Below, one piece after another: positions 32,603 to 37,358 of a DNA stretch of 64,000 nt (positions are counted from its first letter, which is position 1; each line of letters opens with the position of its first letter). Position numbers and translations under genes: made by a program. The notes beneath the pieces were generated by a model. The model was given only the letters and a program-made list of their open reading frames with translations. It had not been told where the DNA came from and searched no databases. The DNA comes from a virus. The DNA lies in the IMG/VR virus record IMGVR_UViG_3300042507_005574; one strand, written 5' to 3'.

Positions 32603-35440
32603 TCAGAACAATCCGTTTGGATGAGCCATTCCTGTCGATTGCCTGAAAGTGGGTTCCGTGTTTCTCGGTGGTTGTGGTGCAATTATATGCGGTCGTGATC
32701 CGCCTTTGTTATTAACACTACTTATGTTCATATTTGTTGTGGTTACATTTGTTTGGGTATTTTGACCGTTGCGTGTATTTGGTTTGAGTGCTTTTTGTTT
32801 TGTTTCATATTCATCTTTTAGTTTTTTCCCCATTGGACCCAATGTATTTTCATCAAAAGAAAAATCACGAAGAAATGGTGTTTCTGTTGGAGTGAACAAC
32901 TTAGGTCCAGATAATAGGGGTTGATTTGTTTTTATTGCTGTCTCGGGAGTCGCTGATTGAGAAGATCCTGTAAAAAACTCAAAAGTTGCTGTTGCAATTT
33001 TGACAGCAGGTATGTTTTTGATGCTGTTGGTGACCAATTCTTTAGACAGTTTGATCACATTTGTAATTGCATCAAAAAAAGATTTGACTTCCTTTTTTAA
33101 TTTATTGTGTAATTTTGGAATTATTGATTTAACGGCATCAAAAATAGATTCAACATTTTCCGTAAAATCATCGACTAGTTTTGGAACTACCGACGATATC
33201 ACTGCCCAAATTTTTTCTGACAGACTTACCAAACCCTTATAGATTAATGTAATTGGATTATAGTTGAGTAAAAATGATTGAAGTTTTTCAATGCCCTCTA
33301 TTATAAAGGTTTTCATGTTATCAATAATTTTTTTCGCTGCGGATATTCCATATTTGATTCCCTGATATAACAGATTCGGAAGACTATATTTCCACAAAAG
33401 CATTAATGTTTCTTTAGCAGCATTTATAATTGAATTGAAGTTATTGTAAATCCACATGACTCCTTGGACAAGCAATCCTATGGGGCTGTACTTGAAAATC
33501 AATTTAATCGCATTGTATGTGTGTTCTAATATTTTTTTGAACGCCTTTGTTATGGAGTCAATTATGTTATTCATGAATTTATAGATTTTATCGAAACCTA
33601 TTAATCCTAGAGTTAATCCATCTGTAATTCCGGCAAATATTCCGACAAGTAATCCTCGTATACCATCTTTTTTAAATCCTTTGAACGCACCTATGACAGC
33701 ATCGATTAATGTCAACACTATCGTAAGTGGGAGGAATGCTCTACCAATTAATGAAATGATTGGTCGAAGAACTCTGAGAAATCTGAATAGACCACTCATT
33801 ATTCCATAACCAAGTCTGAATGAAGTCATAAAGATTTTGAATATTTCTATGACAGGAGCGAAAACAGATTTTAGTATCTTTATGAATCCTAATGCACCAA
33901 ATTGTACATCTTTGATTATCGCAATAAAAGTAGTAAAAACACCTATTGTTCTATTAATTACTGATACAAAGTATCTACCTATAGCAGTTCCATTTTTGAT
34001 AAAGATGAAAAATGATTTCATCCCATTGATCATTTTGTTTATCGCTGGAAATGTTTCTTTCAAATACAAGAAAAATCTTGATATGATTCCTCCTCCTTTG
34101 AAAGCAGATGTAATCATTCCGAATACTTCTGCTATTGCGGCAGATACCATTCCAACTATCAATCCCGTGGCAAATGTTATAATCGCAATGAGTTTAAACA
34201 ACCAACCGCCTTCTCTCATAGTATCCCGTAAACCTATTATGTGAGCATCTATTATTTTTACATTTGCTTTGAGATCTTTATACCATTCGGGTAATTCCTT
34301 CATCTCTTTTTTGTCCTCGACTGCTTGCCTGTTCTGTCTTTCAACAGCGGCTATTTGAATCAAGGATGCCTGCTCAATATTCTTGAAAATACTTATTTGT
34401 TTGTTTAATTTTTGCGTTTCTTCTCGGAATTGTTTTTCTGCCAATCTTTCTGCACGAATCTCTGCGACTCTTTCATTAACACCTTGCTTTACAATTGTTT
34501 CATATATGGATTTTTGTATATTCTCTTTTTGGATTGAATCCCTCATCTCTGTGAGTTTTTCAATGATCTTATCTTGGGTTTTCTGTTCCTTAGCCCAATT
34601 TGCCTTGAAAGCCATGACAGCAGTTTCGTCTTTGAGATCTACTCCTGATTCAATCATAGCATCACTAAGCATTTTTTGAACAACAGAAAGACTTTGTATG
34701 TTTGCTCCGGTTCTTTCAATTAGTCTATTAATAGTATCTTCGTTTGATGATCCTTTAATTTGTTCAAGTGCATTACGAACTTCTTGAGCAAGTTCTTTGG
34801 TTTCATTATTTTTTTGATTTTCTTCTTCGTCTTTTTGTTTCTGCTTTGCTTCAATTTTATTTCTGTCAGACAGTTCTTTTTCCGCTTTTAATTTTTCATC
34901 CTCTTCTTTTTTAGACTGCTTTAGAAATTCTTTCGACCAATTCTTAAATTCAACCAATATAGTTTTATCTTTGATTTTAGCATCTGATAGTGTGTCTGCG
35001 ATTTGTTTTGTGAGATCTAAAGAGGCATCAAGTTCTTTTTTTACTACATCTATCTGTGTTTTTGAATCAATAGCAATCATTTCAATTGCATCTGTGATTT
35101 GCCTTTGAGTTCCCGCTACATCGGTTTGAATTTCTCTTAACCTATTTGTAGACTCGGATCTTGATAGTTTGGCTTCTTCGTACTGCTTTATTGCTATAGC
35201 AAGAGCAGCAGTATCTCCCTTCAGTTCTGCCTCCAACTGTTTCTTCTTTGCATTCAATTCCTCACGCTGCGAGGATTCAATCTTCTCTGTGAGTTCTTTG
35301 ATATATTTGGTCTGAAACTCTTGATTGTCCAATTGATTTCTCAATAGTTCAACCATTTCACGATTATATGAACCAGACCATTGGCTATCGCTTCCTGGTG
35401 CGGTTTGATTTTTGGGATTAGTTTCGCCTTCGTTTGCCAT
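32603..35440 (-). CDS. Tape-measure protein / tail-length determinant (gp29-like)
   Basis: Long N-terminal coiled coil, then hydrophobic and amphipathic helical repeats with TM-like segments. Lies directly after gp26/gp51. Confidence 0.75.
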   Translation of the reverse strand: MANEGETNPKNQTAPGSDSQWSGSYNREMVELLRNQLDNQEFQTKYIKELTEKIESSQREELNAKKKQLEAELKGDTAALAIAIKQYEEAKLSRSESTNRLREIQTDVAGTQRQITDAIEMIAIDSKTQIDVVKKELDASLDLTKQIADTLSDAKIKDKTILVEFKNWSKEFLKQSKKEEDEKLKAEKELSDRNKIEAKQKQKDEEENQKNNETKELAQEVRNALEQIKGSSNEDTINRLIERTGANIQSLSVVQKMLSDAMIESGVDLKDETAVMAFKANWAKEQKTQDKIIEKLTEMRDSIQKENIQKSIYETIVKQGVNERVAEIRAERLAEKQFREETQKLNKQISIFKNIEQASLIQIAAVERQNRQAVEDKKEMKELPEWYKDLKANVKIIDAHIIGLRDTMREGGWLFKLIAIITFATGLIVGMVSAAIAEVFGMITSAFKGGGIISRFFLYLKETFPAINKMINGMKSFFIFIKNGTAIGRYFVSVINRTIGVFTTFIAIIKDVQFGALGFIKILKSVFAPVIEIFKIFMTSFRLGYGIMSGLFRFLRVLRPIISLIGRAFLPLTIVLTLIDAVIGAFKGFKKDGIRGLLVGIFAGITDGLTLGLIGFDKIYKFMNNIIDSITKAFKKILEHTYNAIKLIFKYSPIGLLVQGVMWIYNNFNSIINAAKETLMLLWKYSLPNLLYQGIKYGISAAKKIIDNMKTFIIEGIEKLQSFLLNYNPITLIYKGLVSLSEKIWAVISSVVPKLVDDFTENVESIFDAVKSIIPKLHNKLKKEVKSFFDAITNVIKLSKELVTNSIKNIPAVKIATATFEFFTGSSQSATPETAIKTNQPLLSGPKLFTPTETPFLRDFSFDENTLGPMGKKLKDEYETKQKALKPNTRNGQNTQTNVTTTNMNISSVNNKGGSRPHIIAPQPPRNTEPTFRQSTGMAHPNGLF

Positions 35441-35457
35441 GGGGAGTCTACTTTAAG

Positions 35458-35619
35458 TTAAGATTCTTTCTGCTTTTCCATCATTTCTTTTTCTTCTTTA
35501 AGGTGATGAATTAACATTTCTATGTAAATTCGACGCTCCCAAGGAATCATTCCTTCTATTTCTGTTAGCGAATACTTGTGGTGTTGCATTAGAGAAAAGT
35601 TTGTTTCGTAATGATTCAT
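35458..35619 (-). CDS. gp51: Baseplate hub assembly protein gp51-like (53 aa, not in the ORF track); probably made as a -1 frameshift extension of gp26
   Basis: MNHYETNFSLMQHHKYSLTEIEGMIPWERRIYIEMLIHHLKEE matches the cyanophage gp51 pattern. The frame is open back to the gp26 slippery site. Confidence 0.85.
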   Translation of the reverse strand: MNHYETNFSLMQHHKYSLTEIEGMIPWERRIYIEMLIHHLKEEKEMMEKQKES

Positions 35620-35642
35620 TAGACTATCATGGGAGGTCGCTA

Positions 35643-36353
35643 TTAGAAAAAATCAGCCACCCCCTTAAGGGTAATTGTATTTTCGTGTCCACATCCACTA
35701 CACTTAAAAGACACTTCTTTCGTCAGTTGAGGCATCGTTTCAAAGAAAGAAGATATTTTCCTGAATTGACTTTGAGATAAAGACTCAATGAACTCAGTTA
35801 CATCAGTCACACCAACATCTTTGGCTGTGAATGTTTGCTCTGGTGTATAAATTTTATCAACACACAACGCAACTAATGTAAACATCTTTTCGGTATCTGT
35901 CTTTTTTTCCTGCATCTTTTCGATGTCGGAATAGGTTGGACACCTCATTTCAATAATTGTGCTATCGTTGAGATTAATCTTGCTGTTGTGTTCGGGATTA
36001 AAATCTGGATTAAGTTCAGTAAGATTTACATTTACTACATTTGAATGTTGACAGGCAGAACATTTAATTTGAGGATTCGCAGTTTCTCCAACAGACTTTG
36101 TTCGTATATTCACGAATAAATATTCAATATCAACAAGTGCTGCCTCAGTCATATTAATTTTACCAAATGTACACGCTGCTACCACATCTTGCATCGCTTT
36201 GTATATCTCTTTTTCATTTTTCGACTCTGATGCTATAAGCAGTATTTTTTCCTCTTTAACAAGAAAAGGTCTGTATGTGATTTTTTTCTTGTTGCTTGGA
36301 AGAATCAGTTCATATGTTGGTGTTGTTGCTACTAAGTTAGTCAGTGTTCCCAT
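35643..36353 (-). CDS. gp26: Baseplate hub assembly protein gp26-like (tail assembly chaperone)
   Basis: PTYELILPS...YRPFLVKEEKILLIA, DIEYLFVNIR.KSVGE, two CxxC motifs, FFETMP, and a C-terminal GVADFF. Confidence 0.9.
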   Translation of the reverse strand: MGTLTNLVATTPTYELILPSNKKKITYRPFLVKEEKILLIASESKNEKEIYKAMQDVVAACTFGKINMTEAALVDIEYLFVNIRTKSVGETANPQIKCSACQHSNVVNVNLTELNPDFNPEHNSKINLNDSTIIEMRCPTYSDIEKMQEKKTDTEKMFTLVALCVDKIYTPEQTFTAKDVGVTDVTEFIESLSQSQFRKISSFFETMPQLTKEVSFKCSGCGHENTITLKGVADFF

Positions 36354-36377: not shown

Positions 36378-37358
36378 TTATAGTTGTCCTAAAAATCCTT
36401 GTCCCTGTGAGATAAAAGTAAGTGCTTGATTGAATATGTTTCTTATTTCGTCATTTGGATTTTGTCCAGGAAGACCATCAACTTTTGGTTTTATTAGTCT
36501 TCCATCAACGCCTTTAGGCACATTACTACGCTGATCATACTTTTTTCTCTCTTCTATTTTTTCAAGCATTGACTGCGTTTCTCTTCGCTGAATCTGCTCC
36601 CAATCCCTGATAGCATCTTCTGCTGTGACATTAACTAGTCCATTTCTAACAAAATTTTCGTTACTATTAACAAAAGGTATTTCTGACGGATCTTTTAATG
36701 TCCGTGTGAATCTTCCTTGACTGTCTATGACAGGTATTCCTATATCTTTTGCCGGAGATTCTCCTCCACGAAGAACTTCACGGTACATAAAATCCACTTT
36801 CATTTTTAGTGGTTCTATACTTTGTGTGTAGTTTAGTGATCCATTATTGAGTACCACGCTGTAAGGGTACACTTCTGTCAACTTTATACTATTTGCCCCT
36901 AAATCTTGTCCTAAAAATTCTATCGCTTGGTCTAAACTTTGAACAAAAGAGGGGAGTTGCATGATGTATATCGAACATGATTTGGCGTAGTCATCATAAA
37001 ATCCAACTTGTTTCGTTTTTGGATCTACTATTAGATTTTGCCACTTTTCAAACAAGTTTTTTTCAAACATGTCAGTTAACACATTAAACTCAAATGAAAT
37101 ACCAGATGTGTTGTTTGAATTTATTCCATATGGAATCAGTCTAGTTGGAGTTGAGATATCCATTTCATGAGTAAAAAAAGATTTTGCCGGTAATGTGACC
37201 GAACTAACCGTTAAGGCAAGTCTTTCTTTTATTTCTATCGATGAATACCCCAAATATCTGGCCACACTAGGGGGAACATCAATCAACATGACAAACCTAT
37301 TGGGCCGCATTACGCCCTTTTGTCTGATTGCACTATAGAATTTGTCTACAAAGGTCAT
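36378..37358 (-). CDS. Tail-tube-fold baseplate protein (gp54/gp19-like tail tube initiator)
   Basis: RPNRF, SVTLP, FEKWQ, GFYDDY, EVYP.SV, VDFMYR. ATAAATA on the minus strand at 37374-37380. Confidence 0.75.
   Translation of the reverse strand: MTFVDKFYSAIRQKGVMRPNRFVMLIDVPPSVARYLGYSSIEIKERLALTVSSVTLPAKSFFTHEMDISTPTRLIPYGINSNNTSGISFEFNVLTDMFEKNLFEKWQNLIVDPKTKQVGFYDDYAKSCSIYIMQLPSFVQSLDQAIEFLGQDLGANSIKLTEVYPYSVVLNNGSLNYTQSIEPLKMKVDFMYREVLRGGESPAKDIGIPVIDSQGRFTRTLKDPSEIPFVNSNENFVRNGLVNVTAEDAIRDWEQIQRRETQSMLEKIEERKKYDQRSNVPKGVDGRLIKPKVDGLPGQNPNDEIRNIFNQALTFISQGQGFLGQL

What the first reader, a model, noticed from the sequence alone, without database searches (positions are those of the whole stretch)
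35458..36353. Probable programmed -1 frameshift fusing gp26 to gp51: a lambda G/GT-type tail chaperone in a T4-like phage
Seen in sequence: on the minus strand gp26 ends ...GAT TTT TTC TAA, giving a canonical X XXY YYZ heptamer, T TTT TTC (35652-35646), immediately before the stop. A -1 slip continues LIATSHDSLMNHYETNFSLMQHHKYSL...PWER...QKES* and gives a ~298-aa fusion. The gp51 ATG at 35619 has no SD, and the residues SHDSL, which I recall as part of the gp51 motif, lie upstream of it. An SD-like AGGGGG sits about 7 nt 5' of the heptamer, resembling the dnaX stimulator. The order is tail-tube-fold gene, gp26, gp51, tape measure. Established: this is the G/GT chaperone arrangement of lambda, Mu and P2, but T4 gp26 and gp51 are normally treated as separate genes. 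Inference: gp26/gp51 are the T4-superfamily tail assembly chaperone pair made by recoding.
Basis: partly seen in the sequence, partly recalled or inferred. Interest (0 to 1): 0.85.

Follow-up and report, generated by a model that had tools for sequence, protein, structure and literature searches.

The report
Frameshift in T4-like hub chaperone gene
One tail-assembly gene of this T4-related phage very probably makes both a 236-residue and a 298-residue protein, because some ribosomes slip back one base on a strictly conserved TTTTTTC; phage T4 makes the same pair from two separate genes (26 and 51).

Summary
On the minus strand the gp26-like gene (36353-35643, PF12322) ends GAT TTT TTC TAA. The heptamer T TTT TTC (35652-35646) is in phase. 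The -1 frame opens exactly there and runs 64 codons through a gp51-like sequence, giving a 298-aa fusion.

The heptamer alone is not rare in this window. The support is comparative:
- All 105 analysable homologous loci keep T TTT TTN in phase, with the gp51-like sequence in the -1 frame. They include cyanophages and KVP40-like, phiM7, Aeromonas and Cronobacter phages.
- Codon usage alone would give this with P about 1e-15.
- T-even phages encode FF as TTC TTT and carry gp51 as a separate, divergently transcribed gene. That gene is a gp26-like domain plus the same extension.
- Conserved residues lie upstream of any start codon.

A strong Shine-Dalgarno-like element lies 7 nt upstream. No downstream hairpin was found.

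The first 90 residues of the gp26 model resemble the HK97 tail assembly chaperone (Z 8.2). The gene sits between a tube-like gene and the tape measure gene.

No paper or GenBank record that I found reports the slip. This scan has already found the same signal in at least 165 other genomes. One GenBank record already names gp26 and gp51 tape-measure chaperones.

The parts
35643..36353 (-). gp26-like gene in the 0 frame, giving the short product of 236 aa. The model shows a TAC-like N-terminal domain (residues 1-90). The rest of the protein carries two CxxC pairs (C99/C102 and C218/C221).
   Evidence: PF12322 T4_baseplate, E 4.8e-60. phrog_150 baseplate hub, E 3e-62. AF2 model with pLDDT 90.2. 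HK97 tail assembly chaperone 2ob9_B, Z 8.2.
35657..35667 (-). Shine-Dalgarno-like element UAAGGGGGUGG. Proposed role: upstream stimulator of the slip.
   Evidence: Duplex with the anti-SD is -12.5 kcal/mol, stronger than any other 17-nt window of the gene. Across 35 representatives the site median is -5.9 against a background of -0.9 (Mann-Whitney p 2e-18). The Glu codon before the conserved Gly is GAG in 12 of 17 representatives against a 25% background (p 1e-4).
35646..35652 (-). Slippery heptamer T TTT TTC in X XXY YYZ phase. This is the proposed -1 shift site.
   Evidence: Read directly. T TTT TTN is kept in phase in 105 of 105 homologous loci.
35643..35645 (-). TAA stop of the 0 frame, directly after the heptamer.
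   Evidence: In relatives the stop lies 0 codons (7 loci), 1 codon (93), 2 codons (1) or 8 codons (3) after the heptamer.
35653..35655 (-). TGA in the -1 frame just 5' of the heptamer. It means the -1 frame is open only from the shift site onward.
   Evidence: Read. The translation starts at the heptamer.
35458..35652 (-). gp51-like extension in the -1 frame: 64 codons counting the two Phe of the heptamer, plus the stop. It adds 62 residues to gp26 and gives a 298-aa long product.
   Evidence: phrog_634 baseplate hub assembly catalyst, E 9e-26. It also matches phrog_150 positions 231-281, directly abutting the gp26 match that ends at 232. Gapless alignment with 32 relatives and with T4 gp51 residues 197-249. 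T4 gp51 residues 200-244 against the extension profile built without T4: hhalign E 1.5e-5.
35458..35619 (-). The 53-aa ORF that gene callers usually annotate as gp51. It probably does not exist as a separate protein.
   Evidence: The ATG at extension codon 12 is not conserved. In 21 of 34 representatives the first ATG lies at codon 21 or later, and none has an SD-like sequence. Extension codons 3-20 carry a coding signature in the -1 frame.
32603..35440 (-). Tape measure protein gene (945 aa), immediately downstream.
   Evidence: phrog_5493 tail length tape measure protein, E 9e-7. A large ORF sits at the same position in cyanophage, Aeromonas and Cronobacter relatives.
36378..37358 (-). Tail-tube-fold gene (326 aa), of the gp54/gp48 tube-initiator type, immediately upstream.
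   Evidence: phrog_3629, E 5e-19, and phrog_45, E 4e-16. The syntenic gene is annotated gp54 baseplate tail tube initiator in AsFcp_2, tail tube monomer in phiM7 and tail tube in LPCS28.

Best explanation
The gp26-like gene is a recoded tail or hub assembly chaperone gene.

Most ribosomes terminate at the TAA and make the 236-aa short form. A fraction slip back one base on U UUU UUC, with the two tRNA-Phe re-pairing on UUU UUU. This is probably helped by pairing of the 16S rRNA 3' end with the UAAGGGGGUGG element 7 nt upstream, and perhaps by the adjacent stop codon. These ribosomes continue in the -1 frame and make a 298-aa long form: the whole of gp26 plus a 62-residue helical extension. The 53-aa 'gp51' is therefore not an independent protein. 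It is the C-terminal part of the long form.

The short and long forms correspond to T4 gp26 (208 aa) and T4 gp51 (249 aa). In T-even and related phages these exist as two paralogous genes instead.

By position (between a tube-fold gene and the tape measure gene), by the TAC-like fold of the N-terminal domain and by the two-product logic, the pair most likely acts as lambda G/GT does. Both forms would hold the tape measure protein, and the extension of the rarer long form would dock it to the nascent hub or tube initiator. Neither form would stay in the virion.

Shown here: the sequence features, their conservation, and the homology to T4 gp26 and gp51. Inferred: the slip itself, its efficiency, the role of the SD-like element, and the chaperone mechanism. 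The confidence given (0.85) is for the frameshift; the G/GT-like chaperone mechanism I put at about 0.6.
For: 1. Anatomy in the window: an in-phase heptamer abuts the stop, and the -1 frame opens exactly at the heptamer.

2. Conservation. All 105 analysable homologous loci have T TTT TTN in phase (91 TTC, 12 TTT, 2 TTA), with a 59-70 codon gp51-like ORF in the -1 frame. The set is 98 of the IMG/VR contigs plus this window and Synechococcus phages S-CAM1, Syn1 and S-WAM1, Vibrio VH7D, Sinorhizobium phiM7, Aeromonas AsFcp_2 and Cronobacter LPCS28.

3. Synonymous constraint. The residue before FF varies (S, D, N, G, T), but its codon always ends in T and the first Phe codon is always TTT. With the amino acids fixed and background codon usage, P is about 1e-15 over 35 clusters below 60% identity. 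Two loci changed FF to FL yet kept the heptamer (TTT TTA).

4. Natural control. T4, mogra, PEi26 and STML-198 have gp51 as a separate gene. They encode the same FF as GAR TTC TTT, which is not slippery.

5. T-even gp51 has the architecture predicted for the fusion. It carries a full PF12322 domain at residues 1-201 (E 4e-52 in T4, 5e-59 in mogra), followed by about 45 residues homologous to the extension. The alignment starts at the junction Phe (BLASTP E 6e-6; hhalign E 1.5e-5 without T4 in the profile). The window's gp26 and its extension match adjacent positions of one profile, phrog_150.

6. Against independent initiation. The first ATG lies at extension codon 21 or later in 21 of 34 representatives, and none has an SD-like sequence. 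Codons 3-20 differ at codon positions 1/2/3 by 0.42/0.33/0.59, which is a coding signature in the -1 frame.

7. SD-like stimulator.

8. Chaperone role. The gene lies between a tube-like gene and the tape measure gene. Residues 1-90 of a model with pLDDT 90 match the HK97 tail assembly chaperone 2ob9 (Z 8.2, rmsd 3.5 over 84 residues), 3fgx (Z 8.1) and YqbN 3klu (Z 6.7), with the next unrelated hit at 5.2. The same three hits top the list for a second model, of a 35%-identical homologue. T4 gp26 and gp51 are listed as hub assembly chaperones, and gp51 is reported absent from the virion (PMC3004832). GenBank MT409116 names both of them tape measure protein assembly chaperone.
Against: - No protein, ribosome-profiling or reporter data exist for this or any homologous site, so the slip is inferred from sequence alone.
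- FF is conserved at the protein level even where no frameshift is possible, so part of the T run is explained by coding.
- No downstream hairpin or pseudoknot was found. The window's 60 nt fold at -2.5 kcal/mol (z +1.1), and the mean z over 38 representatives is -0.43.
- The SD-like element overlaps a conserved Glu/Lys-Gly dipeptide, and its 7-nt spacing is shorter than the roughly 10 nt of dnaX (my recollection of the dnaX literature).
- The TAC fold match has only moderate Z (6-8) and covers 90 of 236 residues. Foldseek and sequence profiles find no solved relative.
- Ackermannviridae-like relatives keep gp51 in the -1 frame without a canonical heptamer, so some lineages may use another route.
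- The 35 clusters are not phylogenetically independent, so the P value is only indicative.
Confidence: 0.85

Rival explanations
1. There are two separate proteins. gp26 terminates normally, and the small gp51 ORF is translated on its own, by initiation at ATG 35619 or by termination-reinitiation coupling. The T run exists only because FF is conserved and the genome is AT-rich.
For: GenBank annotators call a separate 43-54 aa gp51 in many cyanophages and in phiM7. FF is conserved even in T-even phages, which have no frameshift. Many genes in this window lack an SD, so a missing SD does not exclude a start. In Vibrio phage D494 an ATG overlaps the gp26 stop (TAATG).
Against: The start position is not conserved. 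The first ATG falls at extension codon 21 or later in 21 of 34 representatives, and at codons 35-46 in three of them. The residues upstream of those starts are conserved, with a -1-frame coding signature. The wobble base before FF and the TTT choice are invariant (P about 1e-15). The FF-to-FL variants keep the heptamer. T-even gp51 carries these residues as the continuation of a gp26-like domain.
Confidence: 0.07
2. The fusion is made by transcriptional slippage. RNA polymerase stutters on the run of 6-7 T and produces mRNAs with one base fewer or two more, and these encode the long form in a single frame.
For: The conserved element is a homopolymer run. Lengthening it by the wobble T of the preceding codon would also favour polymerase slippage. 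No downstream RNA structure is needed, which matches.
Against: From my recollection of the literature, productive transcriptional slippage in bacteria generally needs runs of about 8-9 or more, and here the run is 6 (91 loci) or 7. The site fits the canonical tandem-slippage pattern. From recollection, P2 E/E' uses TTTTTTG as a ribosomal site. The upstream anti-SD complementarity makes sense for a ribosomal mechanism and not for a polymerase one.
Confidence: 0.05
3. The split is an artefact or decay: a sequencing error in a homopolymer, or a pseudogenised single gene.
For: Rare single-ORF versions exist in metagenome gene calls (P0004, P0007, P0011 and P0017, 291-299 aa, one contig each).
Against: The same frame relation occurs in 105 of 105 loci from independent isolates and metagenomes, sequenced by many methods. 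The in-frame versions are singletons. The -1 frame is closed by a stop directly upstream of the heptamer in the window.
Confidence: 0.01

Closest known systems
Lambda gpG/gpGT and the conserved -1 frameshift of tail assembly chaperone genes in long-tailed phages (Xu, Hendrix & Duda 2004, Mol Cell 16:11, cited in PMC9024508; the P2 E/E' site TTTTTTG is my recollection)
   Same: Two overlapping ORFs lie between a tube-fold gene and the tape measure gene. An X XXY YYZ heptamer sits at the end of the first ORF. The long form equals the short form plus a C-terminal extension. The site and the frame relation are conserved while the sequence diverges. The N-terminal domain has a TAC-like fold (HK97 TAC 2ob9, Z 8.2).
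   Different: The protein family is different (PF12322). The short form is 236 aa and has an extra Cys4-bearing domain that gpG lacks. No sequence similarity to known TACs was detected. The heptamer abuts the stop. The upstream neighbour is a tube-initiator-like gene rather than the major tube gene. The frameshift product has not been shown experimentally.
Phage T4 gp26 (208 aa) and gp51 (249 aa), hub assembly chaperones (Leiman et al. 2010, PMC3004832)
   Same: Same family: PF12322 in the window's gp26, in T4 gp26 and in T4 gp51. T4 gp51 is the PF12322 domain plus an extension homologous to the window's -1 ORF. The pair is therefore short form plus long form.
   Different: In T4 the two forms are separate, divergently transcribed paralogous genes (26 followed by 25; 51 followed by 27, 28 and 29). 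FF is encoded GAG TTC TTT, with no slippery site. Here one gene would make both forms. In the tree the split separating T-even gp26 and gp51 from all frameshift-type genes has 88/88 support. This fits a duplication in the T-even lineage.
E. coli dnaX -1 frameshift (A AAA AAG with an upstream SD-like element and a downstream hairpin; my recollection)
   Same: A -1 slip on a homopolymeric heptamer, with an upstream SD-like stimulator. The result is two products with a shared N-terminus.
   Different: No downstream hairpin is present. Here the shifted frame extends the protein, whereas in dnaX it truncates it. The SD spacing is 7-9 nt.

Membership tests
G/GT-type frameshifted tail assembly chaperone pair | Located between a tail tube(-fold) gene and the tape measure gene | tested here: met
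   The tube-like gene (phrog_3629/45) lies upstream and the tape measure gene (phrog_5493) lies directly downstream. The same synteny holds in relatives.
G/GT-type frameshifted tail assembly chaperone pair | X XXY YYZ slippery heptamer in the 0 frame near the end of the first ORF, with the second ORF in the -1 frame | tested here: met
   T TTT TTC at 35652..35646. The -1 ORF opens at the heptamer.
G/GT-type frameshifted tail assembly chaperone pair | Slip site and frame relation conserved among diverged homologues | tested here: met
   105 of 105 loci, in 35 clusters below 60% identity. The synonymous constraint has P about 1e-15.
G/GT-type frameshifted tail assembly chaperone pair | A frameshift product is actually made, at a low fixed ratio to the short form | not testable with these tools
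   This needs proteomics, ribosome profiling or a reporter assay. Indirect support comes from T-even gp51 and from rare in-frame fusions, which have the predicted architecture.
G/GT-type frameshifted tail assembly chaperone pair | Tail assembly chaperone fold, or homology to known TACs | tested here: inconclusive
   Residues 1-90 match HK97 TAC 2ob9 (Z 8.2), 3fgx (Z 8.1) and YqbN 3klu (Z 6.7). A second model gives 6.4, 6.8 and 6.1. This Z is moderate. Foldseek against the PDB and the sequence profile search found nothing.
G/GT-type frameshifted tail assembly chaperone pair | Both forms bind the tape measure protein and are absent from virions | not testable with these tools
   The literature covers only T4: gp51 is required for assembly but is not present in the particle (PMC3004832).
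Pfam PF12322 T4_baseplate (T4 gp26/gp51 family) | Match above the gathering score over the whole domain | tested here: met
   E 4.8e-60, 203 bits against a cut-off of 24.5, profile positions 2-218 of 219.
T4 gp51 (long form) | PF12322 domain followed by the conserved C-terminal extension (...NF.L....YSL......MP.ER...) | tested here: met
   This is met only if the two frames are joined. The extension matches phrog_634 (E 9e-26) and T4 gp51 residues 200-244 (hhalign E 1.5e-5). As a single ORF the feature is not met in this window.
dnaX-type stimulated -1 frameshift site | Upstream SD-like element | tested here: met
   -12.5 kcal/mol against the anti-SD, the best value in the gene. Such elements are enriched at this site across relatives.
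dnaX-type stimulated -1 frameshift site | Downstream stimulatory hairpin | tested here: not met
   The 60 nt downstream fold at -2.5 kcal/mol, z +1.1. The mean z over 38 representatives is -0.43.

The most novel reading that the evidence does not exclude
The tail-assembly-chaperone frameshift extends to the T4 superfamily. Outside the T-even group, 'gp51' exists only as the frameshifted C-terminal extension of gp26. T4's long-enigmatic essential gp51 is a duplicated, hard-wired copy of that long form. gp26 and gp51 are distant structural relatives of lambda-type G/GT chaperones that escort the tape measure protein into the hub.
Probability: 0.55. Interest if true: 0.75.

Novelty: new variant of a known kind. 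Interest (0 to 1): 0.68.

Why it matters
[quoted passage not shown] If gp26 and gp51 are the short and long forms of a tape-measure chaperone, a defined and testable role follows for both.

As I recall from the 2004 survey, which I could not re-read here, T4-type phages were left outside the conserved tail-chaperone frameshift. This finding would bring them under that rule.

It also has a practical side. Hundreds of T4-like genome records annotate a free 43-54 aa 'gp51', or nothing at all, where a joined CDS is probably correct.

The T-even lineage offers a natural experiment in which a frameshift-set ratio of two forms was replaced by two genes.

Tried and rejected
- **Downstream stimulatory RNA structure:** none in the window, and none conserved.
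- **Foldseek against the PDB:** no match with E at or below 0.001.
- **Profile search of solved structures with the gp26 alignment:** only chance hits, E 0.35.
- **NCBIfam:** no family for either part.
- **The local Pfam copy:** no family for the extension. Precomputed tables list a newer PF28602 on homologues. I could not look up its name.
- **Literature:** ten full-text searches found no paper reporting the slip. The terms combined gp26, gp51, frameshift, slippery, baseplate hub, cyanophage, tail assembly chaperone and tape measure. The hits concerned unrelated gp26 or gp51 numbering. Subscription papers, including Xu et al. 2004, are not in the library.
- **The 'no SD before ATG 35619' argument:** rejected as weak, since most genes here lack an SD.
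- **Rarity of the heptamer:** rejected, since it occurs less often than chance would give.
- **The hhalign result:** set aside as partly circular, because T4 was a row of A3. It was repeated without T4.
- **The window's exact fusion protein:** I could not fold it, because a -1 join is not a letter-for-letter translation. A natural in-frame homologue (P0007) was folded instead.
Full report
**1. What is in the window**

On the minus strand a 236-codon ORF runs 36353..35643 and ends ...AAG GGG GTG GCT GAT TTT TTC TAA.
- It is a full-length member of Pfam PF12322 T4_baseplate (E 4.8e-60) and of phrog_150, 'baseplate hub' (E 3e-62). This makes it a T4 gp26 homologue.
- The heptamer T TTT TTC occupies 35652..35646 in X XXY YYZ phase, and the stop codon follows directly.
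- In the -1 frame a TGA (35655..35653) lies just before the heptamer. From the heptamer onward the frame stays open for 64 codons: FFLIATSHDSLMNHYETNFSLMQHHKYSLTEIEGMIPWER...KES*.
- This stretch matches phrog_634, 'baseplate hub assembly catalyst' (gp51; E 9e-26). It also matches positions 231-281 of the gp26 profile phrog_150, directly abutting the gp26 match that ends at position 232.
- A slip would give a product of 236 + 62 = 298 residues.
- Upstream lies a 326-aa tail-tube-fold gene. Downstream, 17 nt after the -1 stop, lies a 945-aa tape measure gene.

**2. Is it more than chance?**

Not on its own. TTTTTTY occurs 51 times in the window, fewer than the roughly 75 expected. There are 13 in-phase T TTT TTN heptamers in ORFs of 100 codons or more. 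Only this one abuts a stop and opens a long -1 ORF: 64 codons against 2-17 for the others. The absence of an SD before ATG 35619 is also weak evidence, because only 13 of 35 large ORFs here have one and the tape measure gene has none. The case rests on comparison with other genomes.

**3. Comparative test**

I collected gp26 loci from three sources:
- 100 IMG/VR contigs;
- three cyanophages: S-CAM1, Syn1 and S-WAM1;
- Vibrio phage VH7D (KVP40-like), Sinorhizobium phiM7, Aeromonas AsFcp_2 and Cronobacter LPCS28.

Together with this window, 105 loci had an analysable junction. Two IMG/VR contigs end too soon after the heptamer to be scored. All 105 have T TTT TTN in the gp26 frame (91 TTC, 12 TTT, 2 TTA) and a gp51-like ORF of 59-70 codons in the -1 frame, starting at the heptamer. 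gp26 identity to the window is only 25-42% in all but one contig.

- **Synonymous constraint.** The residue before FF varies (Ser, Asp, Asn, Gly, Thr), but its codon always ends in T and the first Phe codon is always TTT. With the amino acids fixed and each lineage's background codon usage, the probability of this over 35 clusters below 60% identity is about 1e-15. The clusters are not fully independent, so the figure is indicative only.
- **Variants.** Two loci changed FF to FL yet kept a slippery TTT TTA. In three loci the 0-frame stop lies 8 codons further on, so adjacency of the stop is not essential.

**4. A natural control: T-even phages**

In T4, mogra, PEi26 and STML-198, gene 26 is followed by gene 25. 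Gene 51 is transcribed divergently, ahead of genes 27 and 28. There the same FF is encoded GAR TTC TTT, which is not slippery.

T-even gp51 has the following structure:
- a complete PF12322 domain at residues 1-201 (E 3.9e-52 in T4, 4.6e-59 in mogra);
- recognisable similarity to gp26 (BLASTP E 3e-10);
- about 45 C-terminal residues homologous to the window's -1 extension, with the alignment starting at the junction Phe. BLASTP gives E 6e-6. hhalign of T4 gp51 residues 200-244 against the extension profile built without T4 gives E 1.5e-5. An earlier run was partly circular and is not used.

T4 gp26 and gp51 are therefore the short and long forms encoded as two genes. Stand-alone long gp51 is found across Tevenvirinae, Acinetobacter and Aeromonas T4-likes, RB49-like and RB16-like phages. 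In a maximum-likelihood tree the split separating T-even gp26 and gp51 from all frameshift-type genes has 88/88 support. This fits a duplication in the T-even lineage, but the support is only moderate and the tree is unrooted.

**5. Against independent translation of the small ORF**

- The window's ATG (extension codon 12) is not conserved.
- In 21 of 34 representatives the first ATG lies at codon 21 or later, and in three it lies at codons 35-46. None has an SD-like sequence.
- Residues before those starts (SH[DE]xLxNYYxTNF) are conserved in a gapless alignment.
- Extension codons 3-20 differ at codon positions 1/2/3 by 0.42/0.33/0.59. This is a coding signature in the -1 frame, and the stretch is more conserved than the end of gp26.

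**6. Stimulators**

*Upstream.* UAAGGGGGUGG (35667..35657) pairs with the anti-SD at -12.5 kcal/mol, the best value anywhere in the gene.
- Across 35 representatives the site median is -5.9 against a background of -0.9 (Mann-Whitney p 2e-18).
- The Glu codon preceding the conserved Gly is GAG in 12 of 17 representatives against a 25% background (p 1e-4). This gives (G)GAGGG 9 nt before the heptamer.
- Part of the signal is forced by the conserved Glu/Lys-Gly dipeptide. The synonymous enrichment argues for selection on the RNA itself.

*Downstream.* No structure was found. The window folds at -2.5 kcal/mol (z +1.1), and the mean z over 38 representatives is -0.43. An earlier scan note reported a hairpin in another genome. 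A hairpin is not a general feature.

**7. Function**

- An AF2 model of the window's gp26 (29-sequence alignment, pLDDT 90.2) has no Foldseek match in the PDB.
- The exhaustive VIA-align search gives three top hits for residues 1-90: the HK97 tail assembly chaperone 2ob9 (Z 8.2, rmsd 3.5, 84 residues), 3fgx (Z 8.1) and B. subtilis YqbN 3klu (Z 6.7). The next unrelated hit scores 5.2. From memory, YqbN sits between the tube and tape measure genes of a PBSX-like prophage.
- A second model, of a natural in-frame fused homologue (P0007, 295 aa, pLDDT 90.3), gives the same three top hits at Z 6.1-6.8. It shows the extension as four helices ending in a long C-terminal helix.
- The Z values are moderate, so homology to TACs is plausible but not established.
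- BFVD matches show that the gp26 fold is widespread in large myoviruses.
- The rest of gp26 carries two CxxC pairs with weak zinc-ribbon matches.
- The T4 literature lists gp26 and gp51 as hub assembly chaperones, with gp51 absent from virions and of unknown function (PMC3004832).
- GenBank record MT409116 (Acinetobacter phage Octan) already names both of them 'tape measure protein assembly chaperone'. The chaperone idea itself is therefore not new.

**8. Novelty**

- No record I opened annotates a joined CDS. gp51 is either a free small ORF or is missing altogether.
- Ten full-text searches found no paper reporting the slip. Subscription journals are not covered.
- Rare single-ORF versions exist as singletons in metagenome gene calls.
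- This scan has already flagged and confirmed the same signal in at least 165 other genomes. My tests were run independently and agree with those notes.

**9. Verdict**

This is a programmed -1 ribosomal frameshift that makes a short and a long form of a gp26/gp51-type assembly chaperone. The frameshift is very probable (about 0.85). A G/GT-like tape-measure chaperone mechanism is likely (about 0.6). It is a new variant of a known kind: the logic is that of G/GT, in a different protein family and in a phage superfamily where it is neither annotated nor, as far as I could find, published.

Noticed in passing
L027 (Klebsiella vB_KpnM-20, about 2520-2720), L034 (Vibrio phage D494, about 2150-2390), L035 (Aeromonas TSW001, about 2210-2440): Ackermannviridae-like relatives keep a gp51-like ORF (...MPWHLD...) in the -1 frame. 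That frame opens within a few codons of the gp26 end. The site is N NTT TTC (ATT TTC or CTT TTC), which is not a canonical tandem-slippage heptamer. D494 has an ATG overlapping the stop (TAATG). These lineages may use single-tRNA slippage or translational coupling instead.
   Followed up: partly
L051, L062, L080 (IMG/VR), just after the heptamer: In three contigs the gp26 0 frame continues for 8 codons past the heptamer before its stop. The stop next to the slip site is therefore common (101 of 104 loci within 2 codons) but not obligatory.
   Followed up: partly
L040 and L093 (IMG/VR), at the heptamer: The heptamer is T TTT TTA. The conserved FF has become FL, yet the slippery pattern is preserved.
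   Followed up: yes
L117 (Acinetobacter phage Octan MT409116, 789-2256): The depositors annotate both gp26 and gp51 as 'tape measure protein assembly chaperone'. The chaperone role has therefore already entered public annotation, although I found no paper for it.
   Followed up: partly
L001 (S-CAM1), L003 (S-WAM1), L026 (VH7D), L030 (AsFcp_2), L031 (LPCS28): The gp51-like sequence is not annotated at all in these GenBank and RefSeq records. A gap of about 170-190 nt is left between gp26 and the large downstream gene.
   Followed up: yes
P0004, P0007, P0011, P0017 (metagenome proteins): Single-ORF gp26-extension fusions of 291-299 aa occur as singletons, one contig each. They carry PF12322 plus PF28602, a Pfam family newer than the local copy. 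They may be homopolymer sequencing errors or real hard-wired variants.
   Followed up: partly
window 35441-35460 and 32603-35440 (minus strand): The tape measure gene starts 17 nt after the -1 stop, and its ATG has no SD-like sequence. Only 13 of 35 ORFs of 150 aa or more in the window have a GGAG, GAGG or AGGA motif upstream. SD-based start arguments are therefore weak for this phage.
   Followed up: partly
window 35646-36353 (minus strand), gp26 residues 99-102 and 218-221: Two CxxC pairs (KCSACQ and KCSGCG) come together in the model and give weak zinc-ribbon matches. The first pair is not conserved in all relatives, and T4 gp51 lacks part of it. It may be a metal site in the chaperone.
   Followed up: no
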